A DNA stretch of 64,000 nucleotides from Parcubacteria group bacterium. GTDB lineage: Bacteria > Patescibacteriota > Minisyncoccia > Phycocordibacterales > CSBR16-119. A program made the position numbers and the translations under genes. The DNA is taken from contig CALRFT010000001.1 in NCBI GenBank assembly GCA_943356745.1, forward strand, positions 139,984-203,983, read 5' to 3'. The notes beneath the pieces were generated by a model. It was not told the DNA's origin and did not search any database. It saw nothing but the letters and a program-made list of their open reading frames with translations. Positions within the stretch are counted from its first letter, which is position 1. Each line of letters begins with the position of its first letter. Below are positions 3,024 to 30,236 of the stretch, one piece after another.

Positions 3024-3590
3024 TTGCTATCTTTTCAAGACTGTAATAAAAGTGGTTTTGAAACGTCTATATATATGAGTGACATGGAAATTGAGAAAAT
3101 CAAACAACAGTACCTAGAACACTATGACGAGCTATCCCCTGCTTTGTATCGATTTTTCGTGTTTCAGACTAGCAACACAGAGGTCGCAAGCGATCTACTC
3201 CAGGAAACCTTTCTTAAAACCTGGGAATATATATCCCAAGGGAAACCAATACAAAATCTTAGGGCTTTCTTATATCAGGTAGCGAGAAATATCCTGACAG
3301 ACTACCGAAGAAAAAAGAAATCGAGCTCACTTGAATCTCTCACGGAAACAGGTCTTGATTTTGAATCAGAAACAGACATTCTGGAAGAAGAAAGTAAACA
3401 CGATGATTTTCGATACGTTATCGAAAAATTCAAAATTCTAGACACTGAACAAAAAGAGCTCATAACCCTTCGCTATGTCGAAGATAAAAGTATTTCAGAA
3501 ATTGCAGAAATTTTACAAGAAAGACCCAATACAATTTCAGTAAAAATTCATAGGGCTATAGAAAAACTCAAAAACCATATCAATCAATAA
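3024..3590 (+). CDS. RNA polymerase sigma-70 factor, ECF subfamily
   Basis: Sigma region 2 (ETFLKTWEYI) and region 4 HTH (SISEIAEIL..NTISVKIHRAIEKLK). Alternative start at 3075 (MSDMEIEK). Confidence 0.8.
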   Translation: MLSFQDCNKSGFETSIYMSDMEIEKIKQQYLEHYDELSPALYRFFVFQTSNTEVASDLLQETFLKTWEYISQGKPIQNLRAFLYQVARNILTDYRRKKKSSSLESLTETGLDFESETDILEEESKHDDFRYVIEKFKILDTEQKELITLRYVEDKSISEIAEILQERPNTISVKIHRAIEKLKNHINQ

Positions 3591-3596
3591 AACAAC

Positions 3597-4961: not shown

Positions 4962-4976
4962 TCATGTGCGTTTTTA

Positions 4977-6395: not shown

Positions 6396-6399
6396 GATA

Positions 6400-8412
6400 T
6401 TAATCTAAAATACTCCGCAATACATCTTCTGGAACTTCTTTGTGTGAAGATGTTTTTTCTTCATAATGAACCTTTGTATCAAAAGTATTCCAGTTTTCAT
6501 CATCTGATTGTTTAGTATATTTTTCTAAAATAGACTCAGCTTCATTTACAAGATTTTGAAGTGACACAACATGAACGACTTCTGCTTTTTTTTGTACCGG
6601 CTTTTGAAGTATTTGTGGCTTGTGAGGAAGTGTCGGCTGCAGGTCTTCTTTCTTAGGCTGAGCATTCTTGAGAGCCATCGCTAATGCATTTTTGAGTGCA
6701 TTTTTATTTTCTTCACTTGCTTCTTTTTTACTAAAACGAAGATTAGTATTTGGAATATTTTTAGTCTCTTGTTTTTGAGTTTCAGTAGACTGGATAAAAT
6801 CCCTCACACCTTGTGGAAGATCTTTTTTAATTGGGGGTGTTTTCGGTTTAAACACTTTTGGCGCCTGCTGAATATTTTGTTTTTGAAGTTGCTTTTCTTC
6901 CTGTCTTGGAATTTCAATTTTTGGAATAACTATTTTACTCACAATAGGTGGTGGAGTATCCTCAACAAGCTGTGTTTTCTCTTGTGAAATAGTTTGCTGT
7001 ATATCAAGAGGAATAATTATCTTCGAAGGTTTTTCTTCTTCTTTTGGAGTATCAAATCGTGGTTTTGAACCAAACTTCTCAATTCTTTTTTGAGTTTGTT
7101 TCATTTCCCTATTTGTTTCAAAATGTGTACCGTGCCAATTATTAATAAATTCTTCAATTTCAGCTCGAGGTTTTGCAAATTGAGTACGAGAAGAATCAAT
7201 CACCTGTGTTCGGTAACTAATTTCGGGTTTTTCAAGTGGCCCAATTCCCACAGCAGAAAAAGGACGAGATCCCACATCGTCAATCATGAGAGAAAGGTAA
7301 AATTGAAATCGTCCAAGATTCACAATATCTTCTTGGGTAAATACCGGCGCAAAAACTTTCTCCAAAACCTCAGCATCCATCGGACCAACTCGATATGAAA
7401 TTGTTGTTCCCACGTTACCAAATACAGCATCTGAAACCGGCTCATCCATTTGAGCAATGTATTGGTGAGCAACAGTCAAAGCTAGTTTGTATTTTCGAGC
7501 TTCGGCCAAAATATCTGCAAAAGATTCATTTGCAAAGTTTTGAAACTCGTCCACAAACAAATAGAAATCCGGGAGTTTTGCAAGTTCTGACTTTGGAACA
7601 TCTGCACGACTCATCGCGCCAAGGTAAATTGCAGTAATAATCATACCTCCAAGAAGAGCTGCGTTTTGTTCTCCGATTTGTCCTTTTGAAAGGTTTACCA
7701 AAAATATTTTTTGGTTGTCCATCATGTCTCGAACATTAAAAGAAGACTTTGGTTGACCAATAATATTTCGAATGACTGGATTGGTAGTAAACTGCCCAAT
7801 CTTGTTTTGAATCGCAGGTACCGATTCGGCCTGCATACGTTCTGTATAGTTTGCAAATTCATCAACCCAAAAAGACCGGACACTTGGATCTTTCACATGC
7901 CTTACCACTTCATCTCGAAACCCCTTATCGGAAAGCATTCGGTTTACTGAAAGAAGTGTTGAGTTTGGATATTCCAAAAGCGCGAGAATTGTATTGTTTA
8001 AAATATATTCCATTCGAGCAGACCATGCGTCAACCCAAATCTTTTTAAAGGTAGACATAAGTCCAGACGATACAAGGTATCGTTTTGTTGGATCAATATC
8101 TTCCATAACATTAAAAGCAATCGGATACTCAGAATCAAAAGGCGCAAAATATACAACATCTTTCATTCGATGTTCTGGAATATAATCAAGCAGAGTTTCA
8201 ATAGCAGAACCGTGCGGATCAATAAAACACATTCCTTCTCCGTTTTGAATGTCTTGTGCTGCCATGTTTTCAAGTAGGGTAGATTTACCCATACCTGTTT
8301 TTCCAATCACATACACATGTCTTGCTCTGTCTTTATTTTTAATACCAAAACGCTTTCGTTCATTACGAAAGTCTGTAAGACCGAAATATGTAATTTTGTT
8401 TCCATCTGACAT
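6400..8412 (-). CDS. TraD/TraG/VirD4-family P-loop ATPase (T4SS coupling-protein-like), soluble, with disordered P/Q/K-rich tail
   Basis: Walker A (VYVIGKTGMGKST), DPHG box (CFIDPHGSAIE) and Walker B (LFVDEFQNF). No N-terminal TM helices. Confidence 0.55.
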   Translation of the reverse strand: MSDGNKITYFGLTDFRNERKRFGIKNKDRARHVYVIGKTGMGKSTLLENMAAQDIQNGEGMCFIDPHGSAIETLLDYIPEHRMKDVVYFAPFDSEYPIAFNVMEDIDPTKRYLVSSGLMSTFKKIWVDAWSARMEYILNNTILALLEYPNSTLLSVNRMLSDKGFRDEVVRHVKDPSVRSFWVDEFANYTERMQAESVPAIQNKIGQFTTNPVIRNIIGQPKSSFNVRDMMDNQKIFLVNLSKGQIGEQNAALLGGMIITAIYLGAMSRADVPKSELAKLPDFYLFVDEFQNFANESFADILAEARKYKLALTVAHQYIAQMDEPVSDAVFGNVGTTISYRVGPMDAEVLEKVFAPVFTQEDIVNLGRFQFYLSLMIDDVGSRPFSAVGIGPLEKPEISYRTQVIDSSRTQFAKPRAEIEEFINNWHGTHFETNREMKQTQKRIEKFGSKPRFDTPKEEEKPSKIIIPLDIQQTISQEKTQLVEDTPPPIVSKIVIPKIEIPRQEEKQLQKQNIQQAPKVFKPKTPPIKKDLPQGVRDFIQSTETQKQETKNIPNTNLRFSKKEASEENKNALKNALAMALKNAQPKKEDLQPTLPHKPQILQKPVQKKAEVVHVVSLQNLVNEAESILEKYTKQSDDENWNTFDTKVHYEEKTSSHKEVPEDVLRSILD

Positions 8413-8924
8413 TATTGTTTTACTTGTTTTTTAGTTGCTGTTTTTCTTTTTCGAACAACTGCTTTTTTTACAGGCTCTCTTTTTGTTTCAAGATATGCTT
8501 GTACACTAAAGTATGTTGAGAGTATAAATACTGCATTTAATATTTGACTGATCCAAAATAGAAATAGAGACAGCGCATTTGTGCTATCTTGAATAAAAAC
8601 AGAAACAGCAAGTATAAATGAACAGATAAAACCTGTTATAGAAACCACGAGGTTAAATACCGCAACCTTCTTCCCTTCTCCTAAAAGAGTTCCAAAAAGA
8701 AGCGCGATCCAAAGTACAATAGTAGCCAAAATCGGAGCCTCTTCTATCAGCATATTTGGTGGTATTAAAACAAGCACCGTCGCCAAAACAGAAACAGCAA
8801 TAAGTAGTGCTGCGACGACAAAAAGATAGATTGTATTTTTTCTATAAAAATGGAACAGTTGTTTATCCATAGAGAACAAAGATTTATTTAGTAATACACA
8901 TAAGTAATTATATATCAAAATCAA
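8412..8924 (-). CDS. Small polytopic membrane protein, translationally coupled to the downstream TraD-like ATPase
   Basis: Four or five hydrophobic helices. Its stop overlaps the ATG of the 6400..8412 gene (ATGA-type junction). Confidence 0.45.
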   Translation of the reverse strand: MILIYNYLCVLLNKSLFSMDKQLFHFYRKNTIYLFVVAALLIAVSVLATVLVLIPPNMLIEEAPILATIVLWIALLFGTLLGEGKKVAVFNLVVSITGFICSFILAVSVFIQDSTNALSLFLFWISQILNAVFILSTYFSVQAYLETKREPVKKAVVRKRKTATKKQVKQ

Positions 8925-9142: not shown

Positions 9143-10288
9143 GTGAAAAAAAATAATAAAACCTATAAAGCTTGCATGAAATCGCTTACTCACAAAGTAG
9201 CGAATTTTTTATTTATGGATACAAATACAGAATATAAAGCACTCGTTGACGCAATGCCAAAAGGTCTTGAAGTTGACGCGATTGTAGAAGGAACTGTTAT
9301 CGCATTTGGAAAAGCATCAGTATTTATTGATGTTGCGCCATATGGAACAGGAGTTATTTACGGACGAGAATACAACAACGCTCGAGATGTTATCAAAAAT
9401 ATTAATATTGGAGATACAATCAAAGCTAAAATTGTAGATCGAGAAAACGAAAATGGATACATCGAACTTTCTTTGAAAGAAGCACGACAAGCGCTTATCT
9501 GGAAAGAAGCAGATGAAATCATGAACAATAAACAAGTTCTTGAACTTCCAATCAAAGAAGCAAACAAAGGAGGTCTTATTGTTGAATGGCGAGGAATCCA
9601 AGGATTTCTTCCAGCATCACAACTTAAGGCTGAACATTACCCACGAGTTGAAGATTCTGACAAAGATAAAATCTTGAAAGAATTAAAGAAACTTGTTGGA
9701 CAAGTTCTTCCACTTATGATGATTACAGTATCACCAAAAGAAGGAAAGCTTGTATTCTCTGAAAAAGAAGGAAACCAAGAAGAACGAATTGAACAAATTT
9801 CTAAATATGGACTAGGCGATGTTGTAACATGTGAAGTTGCAGGAATCGTAGACTTCGGAGTATTTCTTAAAATTGAAGAAGGAATCGAAGGACTTGTTCA
9901 CATTTCAGAACTTGATTGGGGTCTTGTAGAAAACCCACGAGAAATGTTCAAACTTGGATCAAAGATTCAAGCAAAAATTATTGAAATCAAAGATGGAAAG
10001 ATTTCACTTTCAATCAAAGCTTTGAAAGAAAATCCATGGAAAGAATTTGAAGGTCAACTTAAGAAAGGTGATATCGTGAAAGGAGCAGTGATTAAATTCA
10101 ACCGACACGGTGCACTTGTTTCTATCAAAGAAGGAGTTGCTGGACTTGTTCACAATTCACAATTTGGTGGAGAAGAAAAACTTCGAGAAGCACTTGAACT
10201 TGGAAAGTCTTACAACTTCCAACTCACACTTTTCGATGCATCAACACAAAAGATGACACTCGAATACTTGGATGCTAAAAAGGCATAA
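9143..10288 (+). CDS. rpsA: 30S ribosomal protein S1 (short form, about 4 S1 domains)
   Basis: Repeated S1 OB-fold motifs (GTVIAFGKASVFIDV; GDVVTCEVAGIVDFGVFLKI; GDIVKGAVIKFNRHGALVSI). Likely true start near 9215 (MDTNTEYK). Confidence 0.75.
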   Translation: MKKNNKTYKACMKSLTHKVANFLFMDTNTEYKALVDAMPKGLEVDAIVEGTVIAFGKASVFIDVAPYGTGVIYGREYNNARDVIKNINIGDTIKAKIVDRENENGYIELSLKEARQALIWKEADEIMNNKQVLELPIKEANKGGLIVEWRGIQGFLPASQLKAEHYPRVEDSDKDKILKELKKLVGQVLPLMMITVSPKEGKLVFSEKEGNQEERIEQISKYGLGDVVTCEVAGIVDFGVFLKIEEGIEGLVHISELDWGLVENPREMFKLGSKIQAKIIEIKDGKISLSIKALKENPWKEFEGQLKKGDIVKGAVIKFNRHGALVSIKEGVAGLVHNSQFGGEEKLREALELGKSYNFQLTLFDASTQKMTLEYLDAKKA

Positions 10289-10301
10289 ATAGTAACAAAA
10301 C

Positions 10302-10328
10302 AAAAAAGACCCGCAAGGGTCTTTTTTG
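10302..10328 (+). terminator. Intrinsic terminator after rpsA
   Basis: GACCC-gcaa-GGGTC hairpin followed by TTTTTT. Confidence 0.7.
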
Positions 10329-10649
10329 TTTTGTTAAAATAATCATTCTTTTTCCATTGATGAAAAAGAATCAAAAAATCTAGACACTCGCATTTTCTAC
10401 TAAAAACAAACATTCTTTTCTAAACATTACTAAACACTTCGCTTCTTTTCCGTCTTACGGACGGAAAAGCATAATGTTCTTAACGAAAAGGATGTTTGTT
10501 TTCTTCACGTGAGAATGTGAAAGTGTCAAAAAATCAGAAAACAACTCCTGCGAGCTTTTTTTGACTTCCAACAAATTTACACCTTTTGCCAAAATTAAGA
10601 TTGATTGCGTTATTAAATGATTTGATTTCTGCAATATAAATTATATACC

Positions 10650-11249
10650 TTAAACAAACTTATTTTTACCTCTCTCACGAAATTTCTTAAGAACCACCTG
10701 TTCTTCCGTAGTTAAGATATGATCACCTAACCCTGTTACTCTTAAGTATGTATTGAGCTCGCGAATACGGGCTGTTTGAAGCTCGCGAATACGGGCTGTT
10801 TGAAGCTCGCGAATACGGGCTGTCATATAACCAAAGTCTATTTTACCATTTTTTGTAATTGGTAGAAAAATTTTTTCATGTTGAATTTTTTTCCAGCTTG
10901 CCATGTTACTGTAAGAATAAAACTTCTTTAAAAATTGAAGTTGCGCAATGAAATAAAGACCCTCCTCAACAGAAAGTTCTTTTTCTTTAAAAGATAATGA
11001 AAAAACTCTTGCATGGGTAACCATTTTATATTCATGATTTCTAAAATAAACATATCCAAACATATCAACAGTGATTGTATTAGATTTGAATATTTTTGCT
11101 TTTATATCTGTTTTACCAATAATACCTGTATTAGTTTCTCCAGAACTTACGACAAAAATACCCTTGTTGTTAATATGAGTTTGTTGTATATCAAAATCAC
11201 CATTTTGTGGTTCAAATAATTCTGAGATTTTAAATTCTTTTTCTTTCAT
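10650..11249 (-). CDS. Restriction-modification specificity (HsdS-like) subunit, half-size with a single target-recognition domain
   Basis: TRD-like fold followed by a conserved helical region that contains a TARIRELQ x3 repeat. Lies 1 nt downstream of the MTase gene. Confidence 0.65.
   Translation of the reverse strand: MKEKEFKISELFEPQNGDFDIQQTHINNKGIFVVSSGETNTGIIGKTDIKAKIFKSNTITVDMFGYVYFRNHEYKMVTHARVFSLSFKEKELSVEEGLYFIAQLQFLKKFYSYSNMASWKKIQHEKIFLPITKNGKIDFGYMTARIRELQTARIRELQTARIRELNTYLRVTGLGDHILTTEEQVVLKKFRERGKNKFV
10757..10825 (-). repeat. Perfect 24-bp tandem repeat (about 2.8 copies) inside the specificity-subunit gene
   Basis: GCTCGCGAATACGGGCTGTTTGAA occurs at 10757-10780 and 10781-10804. 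A third copy from 10805 is identical for 19 nt. It encodes ARIRELQT repeats. Confidence 0.9.
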
Positions 11250-11250
11250 A

Positions 11251-13266
11251 CTATTCTCCTTTTAAAACACGAGAAACTTCCCAAGCAAGATAATCACTAA
11301 CTACTTTTTTAAAATCTTCTTCAGTTGGACGAGTGTCTACTATTTTATGTTGTGAAAATGTCCAGTCATTACCGTTGAGTGTGATTACATCCTCTATATA
11401 TTCATCTTTTGTAAGATATTTTAGATAATCTTTACCATATAAAACTAAATCAATTACTTCTTGGTATCTTTCTGTAGCATTATTTGTATTTTTCAAGTTT
11501 ACATCTTGACCAGATTTTTTACGATTTTGACGAGAGTACCCATCGTTAGAAAAATCAATAAATTTAACCTTTTGTTTTTCGTCATGTTTTTTACCTACTT
11601 CAAAAACATATATAGCTGTTTGCACGCCAGCTTTTCCTCGAAAAATATCTGCCATACGAATACTTGCAAGTAAAGTATTTTTCTCAAGAATTTCTTTAGT
11701 GTAGGGTAAACCATTACCACTTCCGGCATTTTCTTGAATCAAAATTACTGCTCGACCATTATTCATTTTACTGAGTCCTTTTTTAACGAAAACAAAACCC
11801 TTTCCATCTGCTGAGTACGGTGGATTAAGTAAAAAAACATTAGCTGGGAAATCTTTATTTTTATTTTCCCCTTGCTGATATTTACCTTCAAAGTTTTTTA
11901 AACTATCATCGTGGATAATGTTTGTTGATCCATCCCCCATTAAGATCATATTGAGAACAGCAAGTAAATAAATATCTGATCGTTTTTCAATTCCAAGTAA
12001 TTGTTTGTTTTTAATTTCTACAATTTTTTGATTTAATCTTTCTGGGCTCTTTATATTTTTAGTAGCGTCATCAATCATTAGTTTCATCGATGAAACAAGA
12101 AACCCAGCCGATCCTGTCGCGTAATCCCAAACATAAGAATCCATATCAACCTTAGCAAGTTTTGCCATTAATATCGTTACATAACGGGGAGTAAGCACCA
12201 CATCATTTTTATCGGAATCAGGAATATTTACCCAAGCATTCAATACATTAAACAATTTACCTGTAAAATCTAAATGGTAAGCTGATGTGAAAATTGGGAG
12301 AATATTTTTTTCAACAAACGAGTAGATAGTTTTTAGCTTACTCTCACCATTAATCGGTGTAGATAACCCAGAGGAAATAAATACTCTTGATAAATCAGTG
12401 ATTATCATTTCTTTCTTCTCTGTTGGCAAATCTCGTTTATCGAGAAAATCTGAAATTTTATTCAAAATAACCTTACCATCATTATTCTCTCTACCGGTTT
12501 CACCTCGTAAATCTGTAATTTCAAGTGGTGCGACTTTGTTTTCAACCCCAAGTCCTGCCATAAGCATACCTGTTAAAAGTTCTACTCTTGACCCAACAGA
12601 AATCTGTAAGTCATCTTGCATTTTTTGATTTAGTGCTTTGAGATTGACCTCAATTTCATTTTCAATTTTTTGACTACGTTGTTCAACTTCTTGTTGTGTA
12701 AGTTCCAGTTTTTGTACTTCAGCAATAAAATTTTCAAAATTATTTTTTGCTAAAAAAGACAAATCAGAATAGTTACCAACTTTTTTTGGTATTCCCATAT
12801 TTTTTGCAGAAACATAATAAATACCTAACTCTGTCTTTATGTCACCAGTCTTATCTTCATATCCATTAAATCCTATAGCAATTACCTCTTTATAAGAATC
12901 AGTAAAATCAATTATTGCCTTTGCATAGTGAACTGCGCCATTAACTGCAAATCCATTTATATTTGCAAAATTTGGTGAACCATCTTTTTTAATATTTTCT
13001 ATTTCACCAAAATCATTTATTTTTTCTAATTTTCCTGAAATACCTTTTACTTCAATCATTACTGGAAATAATTTTTTATCTTTTGTTTCAAGTAGTAATT
13101 TAATATCGGGGTAATTCTTACCATCACCGCCGGTTTTTGATGGAGCTTGAACCATGGCATTTGCAAGCTCACTATTTATATCTTCTGTTTTGATAAAATA
13201 CTTAAGTTCGGAAAACTCGAGTTGGCGCTTGGCAATATTCTCAATTTTTTCTTCAATACTTTTCAT
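11251..13266 (-). CDS. N6-adenine DNA methyltransferase subunit (gamma-class) with an N-terminal PD-(D/E)xK-like domain; BcgI-like Type IIB or Type I HsdM-like
   Basis: MTase motif I (DYATGSAGFL) and motif IV (NPPYS). The N-terminal ~200 aa have YPDIKLL..(x20)..MIEVKG, reminiscent of a PD-ExK nuclease core. The protein is 671 aa and no HsdR is nearby. Confidence 0.65.
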   Translation of the reverse strand: MKSIEEKIENIAKRQLEFSELKYFIKTEDINSELANAMVQAPSKTGGDGKNYPDIKLLLETKDKKLFPVMIEVKGISGKLEKINDFGEIENIKKDGSPNFANINGFAVNGAVHYAKAIIDFTDSYKEVIAIGFNGYEDKTGDIKTELGIYYVSAKNMGIPKKVGNYSDLSFLAKNNFENFIAEVQKLELTQQEVEQRSQKIENEIEVNLKALNQKMQDDLQISVGSRVELLTGMLMAGLGVENKVAPLEITDLRGETGRENNDGKVILNKISDFLDKRDLPTEKKEMIITDLSRVFISSGLSTPINGESKLKTIYSFVEKNILPIFTSAYHLDFTGKLFNVLNAWVNIPDSDKNDVVLTPRYVTILMAKLAKVDMDSYVWDYATGSAGFLVSSMKLMIDDATKNIKSPERLNQKIVEIKNKQLLGIEKRSDIYLLAVLNMILMGDGSTNIIHDDSLKNFEGKYQQGENKNKDFPANVFLLNPPYSADGKGFVFVKKGLSKMNNGRAVILIQENAGSGNGLPYTKEILEKNTLLASIRMADIFRGKAGVQTAIYVFEVGKKHDEKQKVKFIDFSNDGYSRQNRKKSGQDVNLKNTNNATERYQEVIDLVLYGKDYLKYLTKDEYIEDVITLNGNDWTFSQHKIVDTRPTEEDFKKVVSDYLAWEVSRVLKGE

Positions 13267-13527
13267 ATTCTATTTATAAACACACCACGACTAAAGAAAA
13301 TTATTTTTAAAATAATTAATACGTTAATCTTACTACATGAAAATTAAATAATCAATTTTCGACCCTTTCATAAAAAGCGTAAAGAAAAAGCAGGGTATAT
13401 TTCGTAGAGACGAACGCTTGAAGCAAAGCGTTTAGTGAGTCTCCGGAATATATCCTGCTTTTTTAGTTTTTTATGATGGGTCTAGACTTTTTGTTTCTTT
13501 TTGGGTGATGCAAAAAGAAAAATAATT

Positions 13528-14001
13528 CTAAAACTCTTTCACTTCAATATTTTCTGGTAAATCCCTAACACTAATTTTAATAGTTTCTACTGGTTTTACT
13601 TTTTTATAACTCACATATTCTGTAGAATTTATTTTTTCAAAATCTTTTTTCAAAAATACATAAACATACCCTTGAGCAGTTTGTGGTAAATTCTGATATG
13701 TTTCTTTATTTACTCTAAATAAAACATCTCCATCAACAAAAGAAAAACCTGAACGACAACTTTTCTTTAAATTTTCAGAATTAAATATTGCCATAAATAT
13801 TGCAATATCTACTATATGAGAAGTAAAAACAGCAGGTTGACCATCAGGGATTGCATCGTAAGTTCCATCTTCTTTTAATTTATGATTATACGCTTGTCGT
13901 GGTTCAAACTCTTCTTCAATCTTAGAACCTGAACCATGAAAAACATAATCCCCTATTTTTTCCAATTCTAGTAATTTTTGTTTTTGTTGCGAGTATTCCA
14001 T
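13528..14001 (-). CDS. Hypothetical protein
   Basis: Intact 157-aa ORF with a terminator-like long hairpin downstream (13385..13455). Confidence 0.35.
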   Translation of the reverse strand: MEYSQQKQKLLELEKIGDYVFHGSGSKIEEEFEPRQAYNHKLKEDGTYDAIPDGQPAVFTSHIVDIAIFMAIFNSENLKKSCRSGFSFVDGDVLFRVNKETYQNLPQTAQGYVYVFLKKDFEKINSTEYVSYKKVKPVETIKISVRDLPENIEVKEF

Positions 14002-14004
14002 AGA

Positions 14005-14556
14005 TTAATTAAACTCATTCATCGCCTTCTCCACTCCATCTTTTTGAATAGTCTTAATAATTTTCATAACCTTATCCGAAAGAGATTCAATTTCTTTTTT
14101 ATCATCCTGACTAAAAGAAGCCAAAACAAAATCTCTTCGACTTTCTGGAAGAAGCGCATTTCCTTCTTCATTTTTTCTTGCAACTCCAATTCGAATTCGA
14201 GTAAAAGCTGAGGTTCCTAAAGCTTGCTCAATAGATTTAATTCCATTGTGTCCTCCAGAGCCTCGATTAAAAGAAACTCTAATTGACCCAACAGGTAAAT
14301 CAACATCATCGTACACAACCACAACATCTTGTGGTTTTTGATTTTGTTTTGAAAGATACCAAGCAACAGATCTTCCAGATTCATTCATAAATGTTTGTGG
14401 TTTTATAAAAGTCATAGCATAATGCTCGGCTTCAATACTTTCTGCATATTTATTTTCCTTCCATTCCAAAGACCAAGCCTCAGAAACAATCCAAGCAGCG
14501 TTATGTTTTGTATCTTCATATTTTTTTCCTGGGTTTCCAAGGAGTGCAATAATCAT
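14005..14556 (-). CDS. pth: Peptidyl-tRNA hydrolase
   Basis: LLGNPGKKYEDTKHNAAW, MNESGRSV and GGHNGIKSI motifs. Confidence 0.9.
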   Translation of the reverse strand: MIIALLGNPGKKYEDTKHNAAWIVSEAWSLEWKENKYAESIEAEHYAMTFIKPQTFMNESGRSVAWYLSKQNQKPQDVVVVYDDVDLPVGSIRVSFNRGSGGHNGIKSIEQALGTSAFTRIRIGVARKNEEGNALLPESRRDFVLASFSQDDKKEIESLSDKVMKIIKTIQKDGVEKAMNEFN

Positions 14557-14584: not shown

Positions 14585-15223
14585 TTGCGTCAATACTTTA
14601 TTTTGTATTACAATACTGTCATGGAAAACACTCAACAAGAAGAGAAAACTTCAAAAATTTTCAACATTAAAAGAGAGACTTTTGAACTGATCCGATTTAT
14701 TGTTATAGCTGGTCTCATCATTATTCCCTTCCGAATTTTCATCGCTCAACCATTCATCGTAAACGGTGCGTCAATGAACCCAACATTTGAAACTAACCAA
14801 TACCTTATTGTTGACCAACTTACATATCGAACACAAGAACCAATACGCGGAGATGTTATCATCTTTCGATTCCCTCTCAACCCAAAAGACTTTTATATCA
14901 AACGAGTAATTGGACTTCCAACAGAAACTGTAACCATCGAAGGAAGCAAAGTGTATATTCAAAAAGAAGGAGAAGAAAAGATTCAACTCGACGAACCCTA
15001 TATTGAATTTGAAGCAAACAACAACATTAGCGTTACCCTTGGAGAAGATGAATATTTTGTAATGGGCGACAACAGACCAAACAGCTCTGATTCAAGACAC
15101 TGGGGAGTTTTACCAAAAGAGTTTATCGTTGGAAGAGCATACATGCGGCTCCTTCCACTCAGCAAAATAGATTTTCTTCCTGGAGAATATCACCAAACAA
15201 ATCAAGATACTGATTCATTATAA
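14585..15223 (+). CDS. lepB: Signal peptidase I
   Basis: GASMNPTF (Ser box), YIKRVIGLPTE (Lys box) and GDNRPNSSDSRHWG. Probable start at 14621 (MENTQQ). Confidence 0.85.
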   Translation: MRQYFILYYNTVMENTQQEEKTSKIFNIKRETFELIRFIVIAGLIIIPFRIFIAQPFIVNGASMNPTFETNQYLIVDQLTYRTQEPIRGDVIIFRFPLNPKDFYIKRVIGLPTETVTIEGSKVYIQKEGEEKIQLDEPYIEFEANNNISVTLGEDEYFVMGDNRPNSSDSRHWGVLPKEFIVGRAYMRLLPLSKIDFLPGEYHQTNQDTDSL

Positions 15224-15241
15224 TTAGCTTATACAACACTC

Positions 15242-16537
15242 ATGGCACAAAAAGATTCTGGGAGACTCACCCACGCAAATATTCCGATCATACAAGAAAG
15301 TGAATACTACAACATTCAAGGAATGTTTGAAAAAATTCAAGAAATCGTGATGTATTATGGATTTATTCCTGTTCATCTTCCAATGATTGAACATGAAGAA
15401 TTCGTAGCAAAGGCTGCTGGAAAACAACCTGAGAAAATCACAGAAACACTCTATGGTGTCAAACAACCAAAAAGTGGCGACAAGCTTAGTCTTCTTCAAA
15501 CAACAGCACCGGGATTTATTCGAACATATATTGACGAAAACATGATCGCGCTTCCACAGCCGGTTATGATGTACCGTTTTGGTCCACGATACCAAAATCA
15601 AAAAAATGGAACTCATGAATCTTTCACCTTCGACCTTGAAGTTGTGGGATCAGAAAAAAGTATCATGGATGCTCTTTTGATACGACTTGCTGTTTTATCT
15701 ATCGAAGAACTTGGAGGAAAACATATTTTTGTTCACATTAATTCTCTTGGAGACAAAACATGTAGACAGCACTATATCAAAGAACTCTCAAACTACTATC
15801 GAAAACATATTAATTCTCTTGATAAAGATGATAGGCAACTTCTCAAGACAGATCCACTTCTTGTTCTTAATTCAGAAAAAGAAGGAACAAAAGAAGTAAA
15901 CGCAAACGTTCCAGATCCACTTAGTTTTCTGACAACTGAATGTAAGAAACAATTTAAAGAGGTTCTTGAATATCTTGATGAACTTGGAATCTCATATCGA
16001 ATAGACAAAAAGATTACGCATGAACTTGATTCTGATAGTCACACCATGTTTGAAATCCGAGGATACTCAGAAGACGAGGAAGGAAATCATGACGAAGTAA
16101 ACAGTGTTATTCTCGCGCGAGGTGGAAGACATGATAACTTGATTAAAATGCTTGGATCGAAGAAAGACATTCCAGCAGTTGGAGCATCTATCTATGTTCA
16201 ATCAATCATGTCTATGCCTTGGTTCAAACCACACAGCCCACGAAATCTCAAAGAACCGAAAGTATATTTCATTCAACTTGGAACAGAAGCGAAAATGAAA
16301 AGTCTTGCAGTACTTGAACATCTTCGAAAAGCAAAAATTCCTGTTATGAAAGCACTTTCAAAAGACAGTCTTCAAGCACAACTTTCTGTAGCTGAAAAAA
16401 TTGGTGTTCCATACACAATTATTTTTGGTCACAAAGAAGCTCTTGAAGGAACTGTTATCATTCGAGCAATGAAAAACAGATCTCAGAAAACAGTAAAAAT
16501 TGATAAAATGATTGAGGAATTGAAAAAGATTAAATAA
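15242..16537 (+). CDS. Histidyl-tRNA synthetase paralog (HisRS-like, catalytic motifs degenerate)
   Basis: Full-length class-II HisRS architecture including a C-terminal anticodon-binding domain (TTAPGFIRTYIDE; ARGGRHDNL; AVGASIYVQSI). Motif 2 reads YRFGPRYQNQKNGTHESF instead of FRxERPQxGRxRQF. Confidence 0.55.
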   Translation: MAQKDSGRLTHANIPIIQESEYYNIQGMFEKIQEIVMYYGFIPVHLPMIEHEEFVAKAAGKQPEKITETLYGVKQPKSGDKLSLLQTTAPGFIRTYIDENMIALPQPVMMYRFGPRYQNQKNGTHESFTFDLEVVGSEKSIMDALLIRLAVLSIEELGGKHIFVHINSLGDKTCRQHYIKELSNYYRKHINSLDKDDRQLLKTDPLLVLNSEKEGTKEVNANVPDPLSFLTTECKKQFKEVLEYLDELGISYRIDKKITHELDSDSHTMFEIRGYSEDEEGNHDEVNSVILARGGRHDNLIKMLGSKKDIPAVGASIYVQSIMSMPWFKPHSPRNLKEPKVYFIQLGTEAKMKSLAVLEHLRKAKIPVMKALSKDSLQAQLSVAEKIGVPYTIIFGHKEALEGTVIIRAMKNRSQKTVKIDKMIEELKKIK

Positions 16538-16584: not shown

Positions 16585-17118
16585 ATGTCAAAAAAGATTA
16601 TTCAGCTTGGCGATGAAAGACTTCGGATTGTATGTGAACCAATCCCAGATCTTGAAATTACAAGCAAAGAAACAAAACAACTCATGAAAGACCTCGACGA
16701 CGCCCTTGCTTCACAAAAAGATGGAGTGGCTATTTCTGCGCCCCAGATCGGAGTAACAAAGCAACTTTTTGTTATCGGTGGAATTGTTTTTGATGCAGAA
16801 TATCAATCAGGAAAAACTAAAATACCAAACCCAGCAATTCCAAACCAATATTATTTCAATCCAGTAATTATTGATAGTTCGAAAGAAATGGTTGATATGG
16901 AAGAAGGATGTCTTTCAATTCGTGGAGTATACGGAAAAGTTACAAGGCCGAAAAAAATAACACTGCAATACGTAAATGAACAAGGTGAACATATTGAAGA
17001 AATAGCGACTGGTTTTTATGCTCGTGTTATTCAACATGAATACGACCACCTTCATGGAGTACTTTTTATTGATAAAGCAGAGGAAACTTGGCAAGATGAA
17101 AGCTATAAACAATACTAA
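16585..17118 (+). CDS. def: Peptide deformylase
   Basis: ISAPQIGV, EEGCLSI and QHEYDHLHG motifs. Confidence 0.9.
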   Translation: MSKKIIQLGDERLRIVCEPIPDLEITSKETKQLMKDLDDALASQKDGVAISAPQIGVTKQLFVIGGIVFDAEYQSGKTKIPNPAIPNQYYFNPVIIDSSKEMVDMEEGCLSIRGVYGKVTRPKKITLQYVNEQGEHIEEIATGFYARVIQHEYDHLHGVLFIDKAEETWQDESYKQY

Positions 17119-17938
17119 TATTATATTTTGGGGAACTCCTGATATTACCCTTACCTATTTAAATGACCTAGAACAAGCTGGATACAACATTTCAGCTGTT
17201 ATTACACTTCCAGATAGACCAATCGGCAGGAAGCAGATTTACACCGCTCCAGCACCTAAACTTTGGGCCAAGGAGAGAAATATTGTAGTCCTGCAACCAG
17301 AAAAACTTGATGGGAATTTTGAAGAAACACTCAAATCTTTCAACGCAGATATTTCAATCGTGGTTGCCTATGGAAAAATTATCCCAGAAAAAATTATTAA
17401 CATTCCCAAAAAAGGAACACTCAATGTTCACTATTCCCTTCTTCCAAAATGGCGAGGAGCAACTCCTGTTGAATCTGCAATTTTACACGGCGACATAGAA
17501 ACAGGTGTGTCTATTCAAAATATGGTATTCAAGCTTGACGCTGGAGATATTTTTGCTGAGGAAACGATAACACTTACCGGCATGGAATACAGAGAAGATT
17601 TGCGAGAAAATTTAAGTGTTATTGGTTCAAAACTTTTAATACAAACATTACCTGGAATATTAGATGGCAGCATAGTTCCCAAAAAACAAAATGAAGATTT
17701 TGTTACTCGAGCAAAAATTCTTACAAAAGAAGATGGCCAAATAAATCTTTCAGATGATCCAAAAATTTTGTGGCAAAAATGGAGAGCATATTTCCCTTGG
17801 CCAGGGCTTTTCTTTTTTGATGAAAATGGAAAAAGAATTAAAATCACCCAAGCTCGTTTTGAAAACAACAAATTTATTATAGAAAAAGTTATTCCAGAAG
17901 GAAAAAAAGAAATAACTTGGGAACAATTTAAAAAATAA
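17097..17938 (+). CDS. fmt: Methionyl-tRNA formyltransferase
   Basis: N-terminal IIFWGTPD and formyltransferase core (HYSLLPKWRGATP). Overlaps the def 3' end by 22 nt. Start chosen at MKAINN. Confidence 0.8.
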
Positions 17939-21510: not shown

Positions 21511-22836
21511 TTAAAAATCAATAGCTTGTTTTATAAGGTCTGAAAATTCGAAAGTCTTTTGTTCTCGAGTTTTAATATTTTTAATTGATACAGTTGTATT
21601 TTCTTCTTCCTCTGTCCCAAGAATCACCACATATGTTGCTTGTGTAGATTCTGCGTAGCTAAAAATATCTCTAAATTCATTTTTTGAACCAACATAAACA
21701 TCAACTACAGAATTATTTTTTCGAAGCTCCGAAGCAACTTGCGCGGTGTATGAATTTGGTTGCTGAGAAAATACTACAATTTTTTTATTCGTCACAAGAC
21801 TTTCGAGTGCGCCGATAGTTCGAAGCGCTGTCTCGAGACGATCAACACCAACAGAAACTCCAACTGCTGGAAGTGACTGACTTGTAAATCTTTCAACAAG
21901 ATTATCGTATCTTCCACCGGAAACCACCGAACCGAATTCGGGAGCAGAGAGAAGGTTTGTTTCAAACACCGGACCTGTATAGTATGCAAATCCACGAATA
22001 ATTTTCATATCAAAAATTACTTTATCTTCCACTCCGAAATTTTCTAGATATTCTGATATAGTTTCAAGTTCAACAATTCCGGCCTCTGCATCTTGAAAAT
22101 CACCAAAAAATTTTTTAAGTTCTTTAATTGCATCTTGTGGTTTTGCGGCAATATTTGAAAATTGTTTTATTTTTTCAATCCCATCTTCAGCAATTCGAAG
22201 TCTTCTTAATTCTTGAACAAGTTCTTCTTGAGAAATTTTTTCAGCCTTATCAAGAACAATTAAAACTTCTTTCAAAAGATTCTGAGGAAATGAAATAAAC
22301 TGTGGCAAAATATTAAGAATTGTTCGAGTGTTTACACGAACAATAAAATCAGAAACCTGTAGTTCTTTCATAATTTCAGTAATCATGAAAATTATTTCTG
22401 AATCAGCAATAAGATTTTTTGTTCCTACCATATCTGCATCAAACTGCATAAACTGTCGATATCTTCCCTTTTGAGGTCTTTCACCCCGGAAAACGTATCC
22501 TGCTTGATATCGTTTAAAAGGTCTTGGAAGTGCGTTTCCGTATTGACTCACCGCTCGAGCCAAAGGAACAGTAAGATCAAAGCGCAAGGCAACATCTTCT
22601 TTATCTCCACTCAAACGTTGACTTGTTGATTCAAGACGAAACAAATTAAAATCACTCGCGCTTTCAGAAATTAAAATATTCTCAAATTCTGCAACTGGTG
22701 TTTCAAGGGGCAAGAATCCAAATCTTTTATATACTCGAGTAATACATTCAATAATGTATTGTCTTCCAGCAGCTTCAGAAGGAAGAAGATCTCGAAATCC
22801 ACTTGGAGTATTAAGCTTATTTTCGTACATATTCAT
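21511..22836 (-). CDS. hisS: Histidyl-tRNA synthetase
   Basis: GFRDLLP, class-II motif 2 (RYQAGYVFRGERPQKGRYRQFMQFDADMVG), GGRYDNL and GVDRL. Confidence 0.9.
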   Translation of the reverse strand: MNMYENKLNTPSGFRDLLPSEAAGRQYIIECITRVYKRFGFLPLETPVAEFENILISESASDFNLFRLESTSQRLSGDKEDVALRFDLTVPLARAVSQYGNALPRPFKRYQAGYVFRGERPQKGRYRQFMQFDADMVGTKNLIADSEIIFMITEIMKELQVSDFIVRVNTRTILNILPQFISFPQNLLKEVLIVLDKAEKISQEELVQELRRLRIAEDGIEKIKQFSNIAAKPQDAIKELKKFFGDFQDAEAGIVELETISEYLENFGVEDKVIFDMKIIRGFAYYTGPVFETNLLSAPEFGSVVSGGRYDNLVERFTSQSLPAVGVSVGVDRLETALRTIGALESLVTNKKIVVFSQQPNSYTAQVASELRKNNSVVDVYVGSKNEFRDIFSYAESTQATYVVILGTEEEENTTVSIKNIKTREQKTFEFSDLIKQAIDF

Positions 22837-22943
22837 ATATCCATATGGTACTTGATTTAGACTTATGAATCAAGAAAGAATTTGAATAAAATCAAAAAAT
22901 GTGCTTTAATACCTGAGTTAGAAATAATAGAAAATATACACTT

Positions 22944-26787: not shown

Positions 26788-26815
26788 AAAATCCCCATAA
26801 GGGGATTTTTTATAT
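26786..26815. terminator. Bidirectional terminator between UbiA-family gene and crtI
   Basis: AAAAAATCCCCATAAGGGGATTTTTT. Confidence 0.7.
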
Positions 26816-29172: not shown

Positions 29173-29178
29173 AGTGTT

Positions 29179-30213: not shown

Positions 30214-30236
30214 AATAAGTGAGCTTAGTATACCAC

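What the first reader, a model, noticed from the sequence alone, without database searches (positions are those of the whole stretch)
15242..16537. Second, full-length HisRS paralog with eroded catalytic motifs next to lepB/def/fmt
Besides a canonical hisS (21511..22836) the window encodes a 431-aa protein. It aligns end-to-end with HisRS, including the anticodon-binding domain. Motif 2 reads YRFGPRYQNQKNGTHESFTF (versus FRxERPQKGRYRQFHQ), and the HisA-loop region reads THELDSDSHTMFE (versus RGLDYYNRTVFE). Several ATP and histidine-contacting arginines and tyrosines are replaced. This resembles HisZ-type regulatory paralogs, yet HisZ normally lacks the anticodon-binding domain, and small-genome lineages usually lack histidine biosynthesis. 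It could be a tRNA-binding regulator or editing/trans-acting factor derived from HisRS.
Basis: partly seen in the sequence, partly recalled or inferred. Interest (0 to 1): 0.5.

Follow-up and report, generated by a model that had tools for sequence, protein, structure and literature searches.

The report
Dead HisRS kept as tRNA binder
This small-genome bacterium has kept its original histidyl-tRNA synthetase gene after a second, working enzyme took over, and the old copy has lost every catalytic residue but strictly preserves the residues that read the tRNA-His anticodon, so it most likely now serves as a non-enzymatic tRNA-His-binding protein of a kind that has not been described.

Summary
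ORF 15242..16537 (+, 431 aa) is a full-length HisRS homolog that keeps 2 of 15 audited catalytic and substrate residues. The hisS at 21511..22836 (-) is intact.

It is not a duplicate. It is the lineage's native bacterial-type hisS, still in the ancestral pth-lepB-hisS-def-fmt slot. The intact gene belongs to the eukaryote/archaea-like HisRS subfamily (23% identical) and is present in every relative checked, so it is inferred to be the added copy.

The dead copy is under strong purifying selection. Its dN is lower than that of the active hisS, def, fmt, lepB and pth, and its replacement motifs are invariant across 19 sequence clusters.

All published acceptor-end and active-site contacts are lost. 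The three side chains that read anticodon bases G34, U35 and G36 (E399, R408, Q415) are invariant.

The same pattern recurs in a large radiation of eroded HisRS-like proteins in Parcubacteria (112 of 146 nearest 50%-identity representatives). A flanking-gene tree indicates that the candidate's clade eroded independently.

Best reading: a non-catalytic, anticodon-specific tRNA-His-binding protein whose downstream role is unknown. It is not HisZ, not an active synthetase and not a decaying pseudogene. No description was found in the searchable literature.

The parts
15242..16537 (+). Pseudo-HisRS: a 431-aa catalytically dead descendant of the native bacterial-type histidyl-tRNA synthetase
   Evidence: ORF. 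PF13393 + PF03129, and TIGR00442 below cutoff. 2 of 15 catalytic residues retained. Model pLDDT 82 with HisRS fold. dN lower than neighbours.
15326..15397 (+). Motif-1 / dimer-interface region (aa 29-52, FEKIQEIVMYYGFIPVHLPMIEHE), retained
   Evidence: Y38, Y39, G40, P43, P47 and E50 are invariant across the clade and canonical enzymes, and F41 and E52 nearly so. P47 and E50 are 96-100% conserved in canonical HisRS and 100% in the clade.
15485..15514 (+). Former LRPEGT histidine alpha-amino-binding loop, now LSLLQTTAPG (aa 82-91)
   Evidence: R81L, E83T, T85A.
15572..15640 (+). Remodelled motif 2 (aa 111-133) with a 3-residue loop deletion. The ATP alpha-phosphate Arg is replaced by Q118, the A76-binding Glu by Q120, and the loop arginines are lost.
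   Evidence: The new pattern GP(R)Y(Q/E)NxKxxxHExFTFD is conserved in the clade.
15737..15991 (+). Insertion domain (aa 166-250). The fold-defining residues are kept, but the acceptor-clamping basic residues equivalent to Tt R197, R204 and K209 are replaced (L200, L207, E212).
   Evidence: Contacts taken from PMC4357726.
16007..16054 (+). Former HisA motif, now KKITHELDSDSHTMFE (aa 256-271). R259 becomes H260, G becomes E261, and YY becomes S264-D265. The new residues are invariant in the clade.
16118..16141 (+). HisB motif GGRYD changed to GGRHD (aa 293-300)
   Evidence: Y288 becomes H297, invariant in the clade.
16172..16210 (+). Former motif 3 (aa 311-323, PAVGASIYVQSIM). The ATP gamma-phosphate Arg is replaced by S321, and the segment varies within the clade, so constraint is relaxed.
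16256..16534 (+). Anticodon-binding domain (aa 339-431). It is the most conserved part of the protein (0.86 within-clade identity), and its net charge is +9.3 against +2.9 in canonical HisRS.
   Evidence: PF03129 E = 5.7e-15..
16427..16486 (+). Anticodon-reading segment G396-H-K-E399...R408-A-M410...Q415. E399 corresponds to Tt E388 (reads G34), R408 to Tt K397 (G36) and Q415 to Tt Q404 (U35).
   Evidence: Mapping (1adj residues 30-404 align to candidate 35-415) and PMC4357726. Conservation is 100% in the clade and 99-100% in the independent eroded radiation.
21511..22836 (-). Active HisRS of the eukaryote/archaea/cyanobacteria-like subfamily. It is the enzyme that must charge tRNA-His in this organism.
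   Evidence: TIGR00442 357.6 bits, above cutoff. Best PDB relatives are 3net, 6nhi and human 4g84, with all motifs intact. Only 23% identical to the candidate. Present 5-6 kb downstream in all clade members with enough flank.
14585..15223 (+). lepB (signal peptidase I), upstream gene of the conserved slot. An 18-nt gap separates it from the candidate.
   Evidence: No terminator-like site between the genes.
16585..17938 (+). def and fmt, the downstream genes of the conserved slot
14005..14556 (-). pth (peptidyl-tRNA hydrolase), divergent neighbour that marks the ancestral slot

Best explanation
The gene is the lineage's original bacterial-type hisS. A second HisRS of the eukaryote/archaea-like subfamily took over charging of tRNA-His. 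The native enzyme then lost every residue needed to bind ATP, activate histidine and hold the tRNA acceptor end. It kept its fold, its motif-1 dimer region and an anticodon-binding domain whose three anticodon-reading side chains are invariant. It therefore most likely works as a non-catalytic, probably dimeric protein that binds tRNA-His specifically through the GUG anticodon, acting as a holder, sequestering factor, sensor or adaptor for tRNA-His. SHOWN: homology and fold, loss of catalytic and acceptor contacts, positional orthology with native hisS, coexistence with an intact HisRS of another subfamily, strong purifying selection, retention of the anticodon-reading residues, and the same pattern in an independently eroded radiation. 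INFERRED: that it binds tRNA-His, that it is a dimer, that the second hisS arrived by transfer before the erosion, and what the binding achieves downstream (unknown).
For: (1) 13 of 15 catalytic and substrate residues are replaced or deleted, and the TIGR00442 score is below cutoff. (2) Canonical HisRS of sister Paceibacteria occupies the identical pth-lepB-[hisS]-def-fmt slot. The nearest canonical relative, P0020 (54% identical), also shares the upstream UDG-sigma70-DUF5667-LTD-TraG-S1 block. (3) The intact second hisS lies 5-6 kb downstream in all five distinct clade lineages with enough flank, and it belongs to another subfamily. (4) Selection: dN to the closest relative is 0.071, against 0.168 for the active hisS, 0.095 for def, 0.197 for fmt, 0.137 for lepB and 0.115 for pth. 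Amino-acid identity to relatives is higher than for the active hisS in all four comparisons. Within-clade identity is 0.76, similar to the 0.79 among canonical enzymes. (5) The replacement residues are themselves invariant over 19 clusters: H11, Q62, Y117, N119, K121, E126, H260, E261, D265, S266, H267 and H297. This is not decay. (6) Published TtHisRS-tRNA-His contacts (PMC4357726) were mapped onto the protein. The anticodon readers E399, R408 and Q415 are 100% conserved. The acceptor and active-site contacts (equivalents of Tt E64, E114, the motif-2 arginines, R197, R204, K209, G260 and Y264) are all replaced. (7) Convergence: in 115 independently eroded representatives with 36% mean identity, only 8 of 93 anticodon-domain columns are at least 97% identical, and these include all three readers (P = 4e-4). 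(8) The anticodon domain is the most conserved domain, and its net charge rises to +9.3 from +2.9. (9) The fold is intact and the best structural matches include the tRNA-bound HisRS 4RDX.
Against: There is no direct binding or expression evidence. With the acceptor-end contacts gone, affinity would rest mainly on the anticodon domain, which Tian et al. report contributes only modestly to aminoacylation (5- to 9-fold effects). The three reader residues could be conserved partly for structural reasons. Whole-protein net charge is lower than in canonical HisRS. The conserved His/Asp/Glu-rich remodelled pocket suggests an additional function that this explanation does not cover. No tRNA-His gene or anticodon-arm mimic was found in the window to point to a target. 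The HisRS gene tree alone cannot prove independent erosion. The transfer origin and timing of the second hisS are inferred, not shown.
Confidence: 0.55

Rival explanations
1. A new ligand-binding or catalytic function sits in the remodelled pocket. The former histidine/ATP site, now lined by invariant H11, H125, E126, E133, H260, E261, D263, D265, H267 and H297, binds a metal or small molecule, or catalyses a new reaction, possibly on tRNA-His delivered by the anticodon domain.
For: The replacement residues are invariant across the clade, not drifting. 34 sites are fixed differently between the clade and canonical enzymes, and they concentrate in HisA, HisB and motif 2. The composition, five His plus several Asp/Glu, is typical of metal or acid-base sites (inference).
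Against: The independently eroded radiation has entirely different pocket residues (VANRDYCxETIFE, LEEKIA), and none is shared with the clade. Any pocket function would therefore be clade-specific and cannot explain the recurrent retention. Motif 3 and the motif-2 loop are variable in the clade. The residues that would position the acceptor end near the pocket are lost. No coordinates were available to test whether the new residues cluster.
Confidence: 0.15
2. A protein-protein scaffold unrelated to tRNA. The HisRS body and C-terminal domain are retained as a structural subunit or partner of another complex, as the class II synthetase-like accessory subunit of mitochondrial DNA polymerase gamma is.
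For: The fold, motif-1 region and domain interfaces are conserved. Known synthetase-derived pseudoenzymes often act through protein contacts, such as HisZ with HisG (background knowledge).
Against: This does not explain why exactly the three anticodon-reading side chains are among the 8 near-invariant anticodon-domain columns in two independent erosions, nor why the domain became more basic. No conserved new neighbour gene accompanies it. The slot is the ancestral one.
Confidence: 0.15
3. A HisZ-type regulatory subunit of ATP phosphoribosyltransferase.
For: It is a HisRS-derived, non-catalytic bacterial protein. NCBI labels some members of the related eroded family 'ATP phosphoribosyltransferase regulatory subunit'.
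Against: TIGR00443 scores 47.4 bits against a 271.65 cutoff, well below the candidate's own hisS score. A full anticodon domain is present. None of the 40 window ORFs scanned is a his-biosynthesis gene, and none appears in about 20-kb loci of relatives. Patescibacteria generally lack amino-acid biosynthesis (background knowledge).
Confidence: 0.03
4. Still an active, unusual HisRS (a true second synthetase).
For: Full-length architecture. JGI's automatic annotation calls it histidyl-tRNA synthetase.
Against: The motif-2 Arg, the motif-3 Arg, the HisA catalytic Arg, the histidine-binding Glu/Thr/Tyr residues and both Glu residues essential for A76 positioning are all replaced. No class II synthetase is known to work without the motif 2 and 3 arginines (background knowledge). 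An intact HisRS is encoded 5 kb away.
Confidence: 0.02
5. A decaying pseudogene on its way to deletion.
For: Catalytic motifs are eroded. Motif 3 is variable.
Against: The ORF is intact in 19 clusters spanning 69-100% identity. dN is lower than for the active hisS and most neighbours. The replacement motifs are invariant. The model folds confidently. Streamlined genomes delete useless genes quickly (background knowledge).
Confidence: 0.02

Closest known systems
Canonical bacterial histidyl-tRNA synthetase (TIGR00442; structures 1qe0, 1kmm, 1adj/4rdx)
   Same: Same length, domain order and fold: class II catalytic domain, insertion domain and class IIa anticodon-binding domain. It sits in the same genomic slot as hisS of sister lineages, is 50-54% identical to canonical Nomurabacteria HisRS, and has the same anticodon-reading residues.
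   Different: 13 of 15 catalytic and substrate residues and all published acceptor-end contacts are replaced. The motif-2 loop is shortened by 3 residues. The HMM score is below the curated cutoff. An active HisRS of another subfamily coexists with it.
HisRS-like domain of the eukaryotic kinase GCN2
   Same: A full HisRS-like module (catalytic-like plus anticodon-binding-like domains) that lacks the elements for adenylate formation and aminoacylation and has been repurposed to bind tRNA for regulation (PMC11363354).
   Different: In GCN2 it is one domain of a large eukaryotic kinase, and by that paper's section heading its anticodon-binding domain 'lacks anticodon-decoding side chains', so it senses deacylated tRNAs generally. 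Here the protein stands alone, is bacterial, and keeps the decoding side chains at 100%. That predicts specificity for tRNA-His. No kinase or other effector domain is present.
HisZ (regulatory subunit of ATP phosphoribosyltransferase, TIGR00443)
   Same: A bacterial HisRS-derived protein without aminoacylation activity.
   Different: HisZ is an old duplicate that works with short-form HisG in histidine biosynthesis and normally lacks the anticodon-binding domain (background knowledge). The candidate fails the HisZ model (47 bits against a 272 cutoff), has the anticodon domain, has no his genes nearby, and is the native hisS eroded in place.
The large eroded HisRS-like family of Parcubacteria/Paceibacteria (for example P0241-P0360; Taylorbacteria and others), named in databases 'His/Gly/Thr/Pro-type tRNA ligase C-terminal domain-containing protein', 'hypothetical protein' or, probably wrongly, 'ATP phosphoribosyltransferase regulatory subunit'
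   Same: Same origin (type-A hisS downstream of pth-lepB), the same loss of pocket and acceptor contacts, and the same retention of the anticodon domain and its three reader residues.
   Different: The replacement motifs are different ((R)LEEKIA, VANRDYCxETIFE, IGxRYDxL), with no shared derived pocket states. The downstream context differs (ybeY-ftsA-ftsZ instead of def-fmt). Erosion is much deeper: usually only the anticodon-domain Pfam family still matches. The flanking-gene tree places the candidate clade with a canonical-HisRS organism instead (86% bootstrap; clade + eroded family 0%), so the erosion was independent. Whether those genomes carry the second hisS type was not testable here.
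Accessory subunit of mitochondrial DNA polymerase gamma (class IIa synthetase-like), cited from background knowledge only
   Same: A homodimeric class IIa synthetase-derived protein, including an anticodon-binding-like domain, with no aminoacylation activity and a new role.
   Different: It is eukaryotic, and it binds the polymerase and DNA rather than a tRNA anticodon. It was not compared computationally here.

Membership tests
Functional histidine--tRNA ligase (TIGR00442 equivalog) | Whole-protein HMM score at or above the curated cutoff | tested here: not met
   217.5 bits against a cutoff of 286.75. The other hisS in the window scores 357.6.
Functional histidine--tRNA ligase (TIGR00442 equivalog) | Class II motif 2 (Arg for the ATP alpha-phosphate, Glu, loop arginines) and the motif 3 Arg | tested here: not met
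   R113Q, E115Q, R121 deleted, R311S, G308Y.
Functional histidine--tRNA ligase (TIGR00442 equivalog) | HisRS-specific HisA (RGLDYY) and HisB (GGRYD) motifs and the LRPEGT loop that bind histidine | tested here: not met
   R259H, Y263S, Y264D, Y288H, E83T, T85A.
Functional histidine--tRNA ligase (TIGR00442 equivalog) | HisRS fold with insertion domain and class IIa anticodon-binding domain | tested here: met
   PF13393 + PF03129. AF2 model pLDDT 82; top Foldseek hits 1adj, 4e51 and 4rdx, prob 1.00.
Functional histidine--tRNA ligase (TIGR00442 equivalog) | Anticodon-reading residues (equivalents of Tt E388, K397, Q404) | tested here: met
   E399, R408 and Q415 are invariant in the clade.
Functional histidine--tRNA ligase (TIGR00442 equivalog) | Histidine activation and tRNA-His aminoacylation activity | not testable with these tools
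   Requires ATP-PPi exchange and aminoacylation assays.
HisZ (TIGR00443) | Whole-protein HMM score at or above the curated cutoff | tested here: not met
   47.4 bits against a cutoff of 271.65.
HisZ (TIGR00443) | Co-occurrence with short-form hisG and other histidine-biosynthesis genes | tested here: inconclusive
   None among the 40 largest ORFs of the 64-kb window, and none in the called genes of relatives' loci. The rest of the genome could not be scanned.
HisZ (TIGR00443) | Catalytic-domain-only architecture (no class IIa anticodon-binding domain in typical members) | tested here: not met
   PF03129 at residues 340-429, E = 5.7e-15.
GCN2-type HisRS-like regulatory domain | Embedded in a protein kinase next to pseudokinase and C-terminal domains | tested here: not met
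   A stand-alone 431-aa ORF with only HisRS domains.
GCN2-type HisRS-like regulatory domain | Anticodon-binding domain without anticodon-decoding side chains (binds deacylated tRNAs generally) | tested here: not met
   The decoding side chains are retained at 100%. The GCN2 feature is as described in PMC11363354.
Synthetase-derived pseudoenzyme (general kind) | Clear homology to a synthetase, loss of catalytic residues, and persistence under purifying selection | tested here: met
   loss; selection.
Large eroded HisRS-like family of Parcubacteria (P0241-type) | Shared derived motifs ((R)LEEKIA, VANRDYCxETIFE, IGxRYDxL) and the pth-lepB-X-ybeY-ftsA-ftsZ context | tested here: not met
   None of these motifs is shared. 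The context is def-fmt (against 54-56). The flanking-gene tree separates them. The HisRS gene tree itself is ambiguous.

The most novel reading that the evidence does not exclude
Patescibacteria have repeatedly converted their native HisRS into a stand-alone, anticodon-specific tRNA-His-binding protein. This would be a bacterial counterpart of the GCN2 sensor module, but specific for one tRNA. It would carry out a regulatory or protective task on tRNA-His that is more constrained than aminoacylation itself: sensing or sequestering uncharged tRNA-His, shielding its anticodon, or recruiting another activity. In the window's clade the remodelled His/Asp/Glu pocket may add a new ligand or catalytic site.
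Probability: 0.3. Interest if true: 0.85.

Novelty: new variant of a known kind. Interest (0 to 1): 0.68.

Why it matters
Catalytically dead synthetase relatives are known (HisZ, the GCN2 HisRS-like domain, the polymerase gamma accessory subunit). A free-standing bacterial pseudo-HisRS that keeps the anticodon-decoding residues and discards everything that touches ATP, histidine and the acceptor end was not found in the searchable literature.

It evolves more slowly than the enzyme that actually charges tRNA-His. The same outcome arose at least twice in Parcubacteria, where eroded forms outnumber canonical ones among the candidate's nearest sequence representatives. This points to an unrecognised, strongly selected tRNA-His-related function in organisms with minimal genomes.

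It also gives a dated natural experiment on how an essential enzyme is displaced and repurposed in place. The window's clade is a young, lightly eroded case with a canonical sister.

There is a practical consequence too. Hundreds of database entries called 'histidyl-tRNA synthetase' or 'ATP phosphoribosyltransferase regulatory subunit' in these genomes are probably mislabelled, which affects metabolic reconstructions and marker-gene sets.

Tried and rejected
(1) HisZ reading: rejected. TIGR00443 is far below cutoff, and no his-biosynthesis gene is among the 40 window ORFs scanned.

(2) Decaying pseudogene: rejected by dN and identity comparisons with 10 neighbouring genes and by the invariant replacement motifs. 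dS is saturated (above 1) in all pairs, so dN/dS values (0.05-0.13) are only indicative. The argument rests on relative dN.

(3) 'The canonical hisS is the degenerate one': rejected.

(4) Single origin with the large eroded family: an NJ tree of HisRS sequences places the clade beside the eroded radiation, but the sister group is unstable (sister group mixed in 59, all eroded in 39 and all canonical in 2 of 100 bootstraps). A four-point test is inconclusive because the distances are saturated. No derived pocket states are shared, and the flanking-gene tree contradicts a single origin. I treat the erosions as independent but not proven.

(5) The motif-2 3-residue deletion as a shared marker: rejected. 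Loop length ranges from 12 to 26 residues (two longer outliers) in the eroded set.

(6) mRNA anticodon-arm mimic, as in ThrRS or yeast HisRS autoregulation: 1 hairpin of the form 5 bp + YUGUGRN found against 0.45 expected, and it lies inside an ORF. The 5' leader of the active hisS has a hairpin without GUG. No support.

(7) Looking for tRNA-His: the window has only tRNA-Asn, and the fetched loci have none.

(8) Co-occurrence of the second hisS type with the large eroded family: not seen within +-10 kb in L042 and L072-L074. A contig-length coincidence (5,926 bp) proved false. This remains untested.

(9) Literature searches for a described pseudo-HisRS in CPR/Patescibacteria found nothing relevant.

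(10) The genome-contig scan found only one clade member, and the metagenome scan only three, so the clade is small.

(11) Promoter and terminator scans were uninformative apart from the absence of terminators inside lepB-X-def-fmt.
Full report
OBSERVATION. The ORF at 15242..16537 (+) encodes 431 aa. A second hisS lies at 21511..22836 (-). The candidate matches the HisRS catalytic family PF13393 (48.6 bits) and the class IIa anticodon-binding family PF03129 (55.7 bits) from end to end. It scores 217.5 bits against NCBIfam hisS (TIGR00442), below the curated cutoff of 286.75. The other gene scores 357.6. The two proteins are only 23% identical.

The candidate's best solved relatives are bacterial HisRS: S. 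aureus 1qe0 (E = 8e-44), E. coli 1htt/1kmm and T. thermophilus 1adj/4rdx. An AlphaFold2 model built from a 47-sequence alignment is confident (pLDDT 82, pTM 0.80). Foldseek returns only full-length HisRS, including the tRNA complex 4RDX.

CATALYTIC AUDIT. I used the HMMER alignment to E. coli HisRS and MAFFT alignments to canonical enzymes. They give R81L, E83T, T85A, R113Q, E115Q, R121 deleted within a 3-residue deletion of the motif-2 loop, Q127T, R259H, Y263S, Y264D, Y288H, G308Y and R311S. Only the HisB Gly and Arg survive, which is 2 of 15 audited positions. The other hisS has an intact motif 2 (FRGERPQKGRYRQF), HisA (RGFAYYTG), HisB (GGRYD) and motif 3 (GVSVGVDR).

IT IS THE NATIVE GENE, NOT A DUPLICATE. 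The homolog search shows a sharp gap. Nineteen clusters are 69-100% identical to the candidate. After them come hundreds of proteins about 50% identical that are annotated as histidine--tRNA ligase of Nomurabacteria, Paceibacteria or Patescibacteria and have intact motifs.

In four related contigs the candidate's ortholog sits in pth<-, lepB, X, def, fmt, with the second hisS 5-6 kb downstream between ahpC and ppa. In sister organisms with a canonical enzyme, that enzyme occupies the same pth-lepB-[hisS]-def-fmt slot. The nearest canonical relative, P0020 (54% identical), also shares the further-upstream UDG-sigma70-DUF5667-LTD-TraG-S1 block. The pth-lepB-hisS arrangement is widespread in Patescibacteria.

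The 441-aa enzyme belongs to a different HisRS subfamily. Its best solved relatives are Nostoc 3net, 6nhi, human cytoplasmic 4g84 and Thermoplasma 1wu7. Its nearest relatives outside the clade (about 40-50% identical) are in other Patescibacteria, in unrelated genomic contexts. I infer that this second enzyme was acquired and took over charging, which released the native gene. The order of events is dictated by necessity but was not observed directly.

IT IS UNDER STRONG SELECTION. Across four relatives the candidate is more conserved than the active hisS: 89 vs 78%, 74 vs 66%, 72 vs 60% and 69 vs 49% identity. It is also more conserved than pth, lepB, def, fmt, the PPIase and HPF. Nei-Gojobori dN to the closest relative is 0.071, against 0.168 for the active hisS. 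Only ppa is lower. dS is saturated, so the ratios (0.05-0.13) are only indicative.

Mean identity within the clade (0.76) equals that among canonical enzymes of similar breadth (0.79). The anticodon-binding domain is the most conserved part, at 0.86. Thirty-four sites are fixed differently in the clade and in canonical enzymes, and they concentrate in HisA, HisB and motif 2. The replacements are invariant across all 19 clusters: H260, E261, D265, S266, H267, H297, Y117, N119, K121 and E126. By contrast, motif 3, the motif-2 loop and the KEMY loop have simply lost constraint. This is remodelling followed by purifying selection, not decay.

WHAT IS KEPT AND WHAT IS LOST. Tian et al. 2015 (PMC4357726) list the contacts in the T. 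thermophilus HisRS-tRNA-His complex.
- Anticodon contacts: G34 is read by Glu386-Glu388, U35 by the Gln404 side chain, and G36 by Lys397 (side chain) and Lys399 (main chain).
- Acceptor-end contacts: Glu64 and Glu114 (both essential), the motif-2 residues Arg115, Gln117, Lys118, Arg120 and Arg122, the insertion-domain residues Arg197, Arg204 and Lys209, and Gly260 and Tyr264.

The alignment ends at candidate residue 415 and 1adj residue 404. That fixes the correspondence E399 = Glu388, R408 = Lys397 and Q415 = Gln404. These three residues are 100% conserved in the clade. The contacts mapped individually (equivalents of Glu64, Glu114, Arg197, Arg204, Lys209, Gly260 and Tyr264, and the motif-2 ATP Arg) are all replaced; the remaining motif-2 loop contacts lie in the segment shortened by the 3-residue deletion, where the loop arginines are lost. 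The anticodon domain's net charge rises to +9.3, against +2.9 in canonical enzymes. In short, the protein has discarded everything needed to activate histidine and to hold the CCA end, and has kept, with more stringency than working enzymes (92%, 72% and 87% at these positions), what is needed to read the GUG anticodon.

A RECURRENT PHENOMENON. While auditing loci from a metagenome scan I found other, differently eroded genes in the same slot (L042, L048, L049). The L042 protein has more than 1,000 relatives of 400-430 aa in Taylorbacteria, Nomurabacteria and other Parcubacteria. Most match only PF03129. They are named 'His/Gly/Thr/Pro-type tRNA ligase C-terminal domain-containing protein', 'hypothetical protein' or 'ATP phosphoribosyltransferase regulatory subunit'.

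Among the 146 nearest 50%-identity representatives of the candidate in a 1.84-billion-protein library, 112 keep 8 or fewer of the 15 catalytic residues and only 30 keep 13 or more. This radiation has its own replacement motifs: (R)LEEKIA, VANRDYCxETIFE and IGxRYDxL. Its context is gyrA...S1-pth-lepB-X-ybeY-ftsA-ftsZ. It shares no derived pocket state with the candidate clade.

The radiation converges on the same retained core. Only 8 of 93 anticodon-domain columns are at least 97% identical across 115 representatives with 36% mean identity: G347, A350, R362, Q380, G396, E399, R408 and Q415. These include all three anticodon readers (hypergeometric P = 4e-4), and all eight are identical in the candidate clade.

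INDEPENDENT ORIGIN OF THE WINDOW'S CLADE. An NJ tree of the HisRS sequences places the clade beside the eroded radiation, but the sister group is unstable, and long-branch attraction or convergent loss could produce that result. A four-point analysis is inconclusive.

A tree of the flanking genes pth + lepB (353 columns, 500 bootstraps) gives a clear answer. The clade is monophyletic (100%). Its sister is the organism carrying canonical P0020 (86%). The grouping of the clade with the other eroded lineages has 0% support. Taken with the shared upstream and downstream synteny and the lack of shared derived states, the clade is best read as a younger, independent erosion. That makes it a useful lightly eroded case: it still keeps P47, E50, G60 and the HisB Gly-Gly, which the old radiation has lost. 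This conclusion rests on NJ trees of short alignments and should be repeated with better models.

MECHANISM. Most likely (0.55) this is a non-catalytic, probably dimeric protein that binds tRNA-His through its anticodon. What that binding achieves is unknown. The possibilities include sequestering or sensing tRNA-His, protecting it, or delivering it to another activity.

The main rivals are as follows.
- A clade-specific new ligand or catalytic site in the invariant His/Asp/Glu-rich pocket (0.15). This could coexist with tRNA binding but cannot explain the recurrent retention, because the other radiation has a different pocket.
- A tRNA-independent scaffold role (0.15).
- HisZ, an active HisRS and a decaying pseudogene are each at or below 0.03, for the reasons given above.

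COMPARISON WITH KNOWN SYSTEMS. The closest functional analogue is the HisRS-like domain of GCN2, which also keeps both HisRS domains, lacks the catalytic elements and binds tRNA. According to PMC11363354, however, its anticodon-binding domain lacks the decoding side chains, and it is part of a eukaryotic kinase. HisZ shares only the ancestry. The candidate fails the membership tests for functional HisRS, for HisZ and for the GCN2 type. It fits the general kind 'synthetase-derived pseudoenzyme'. I found no description of such a protein in seven literature searches, though the searchable library is incomplete.

LIMITS. There are no expression or binding data. The tRNA-His gene of this organism and the rest of its genome could not be examined. 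No model coordinates were available to test whether the new pocket residues cluster. dS is saturated.

VERDICT. The feature is real, strongly selected, and part of a larger undescribed phenomenon. I rate it a new variant of a known kind, with interest 0.68.

Noticed in passing
L042:9941-11125 (+); L072, L073, L074 at 10001-11254; proteins P0241-P0360 and most of P0361-P0504: A very large, diverse radiation of eroded HisRS-like proteins in Parcubacteria/Paceibacteria. 112 of the 146 nearest 50%-identity representatives keep 8 or fewer of 15 catalytic residues. They sit in a fixed S1-pth-lepB-X-ybeY-ftsA-ftsZ context. Their database names are generic or probably wrong, such as 'ATP phosphoribosyltransferase regulatory subunit'.
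   Followed up: partly
L048:9935-11272 (+) and L048:13091-14554 (-): A partly eroded HisRS (8 of 15 residues: motif-2 Arg to Ala, motif-3 Arg to Lys, HisA YY to FF, HisB GGNY) downstream of lepB on a 264-kb contig. It may be an intermediate stage. About 2 kb downstream lies a 487-aa ORF whose sequence looks like a RelA/SpoT-type (p)ppGpp enzyme; that call is by eye and was not run against Pfam. Other intermediates are P0375 (12/15), P0486 and P0489 (10/15).
   Followed up: no
window 25927-33340: A light-related gene cluster: UbiA prenyltransferase, a phytoene-desaturase-like amine oxidase, phytoene/squalene synthase, polyprenyl synthetase, a photolyase-related (DPRP) protein, a flavin reductase and a bacteriorhodopsin-like protein (PF01036, 32759-33340, -). 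So a Patescibacteria genome has a rhodopsin next to carotenoid-synthesis genes.
   Followed up: no
window 10650-14001: A type I restriction-modification specificity subunit (10650-11249), an N6 DNA methylase (11251-13266) and an unannotated 157-aa ORF (13528-14001) are inserted between the S1 gene (9143-10288) and pth. Relatives L004 and L006 have S1 directly next to pth.
   Followed up: no
window 3024-8924: A conserved block: ECF-type sigma factor, a DUF5667 protein, a secreted LTD/PKD-domain protein, a TraG/TrwB-type type IV coupling ATPase and a small ORF. It is shared with L004, L006 and the canonical-HisRS relative L009, and it served here as a synteny marker.
   Followed up: partly
window 56522-58054 (-): A complete 16S rRNA gene (1,533 nt) with no 23S or 5S gene anywhere in the 64-kb window, so the rRNA genes are unlinked. 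The only tRNA in the window is tRNA-Asn(GTT) at 41026-41098.
   Followed up: no
window 22851-22874 (-): A hairpin, CTTGATT-CATAAGTCTA-AATCAAG (7-bp stem, 10-nt loop), 14 nt upstream of the start of the active hisS. It has no GUG in the loop, so it is not an obvious tRNA-His anticodon mimic. Conservation in relatives was not checked.
   Followed up: no
window 22831-22836 (-): The start codon of the active hisS is ambiguous. The first ATG gives 441 aa (MNMYEN...), but the public gene call for the identical protein (P0121) is 439 aa, starting at the second ATG. The exact 441-aa sequence is absent from the protein collection.
   Followed up: partly
L011:12179-16416: In another Patescibacteria genome (GCA_964566505.1) the eukaryote/archaea-like hisS sits in a cluster of synthetase genes: a class IIa gene with PF00587+PF03129, a class Ib gene with PF00579, and a class IIb gene with PF00152. 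This is an unusual concentration of aaRS genes.
   Followed up: no
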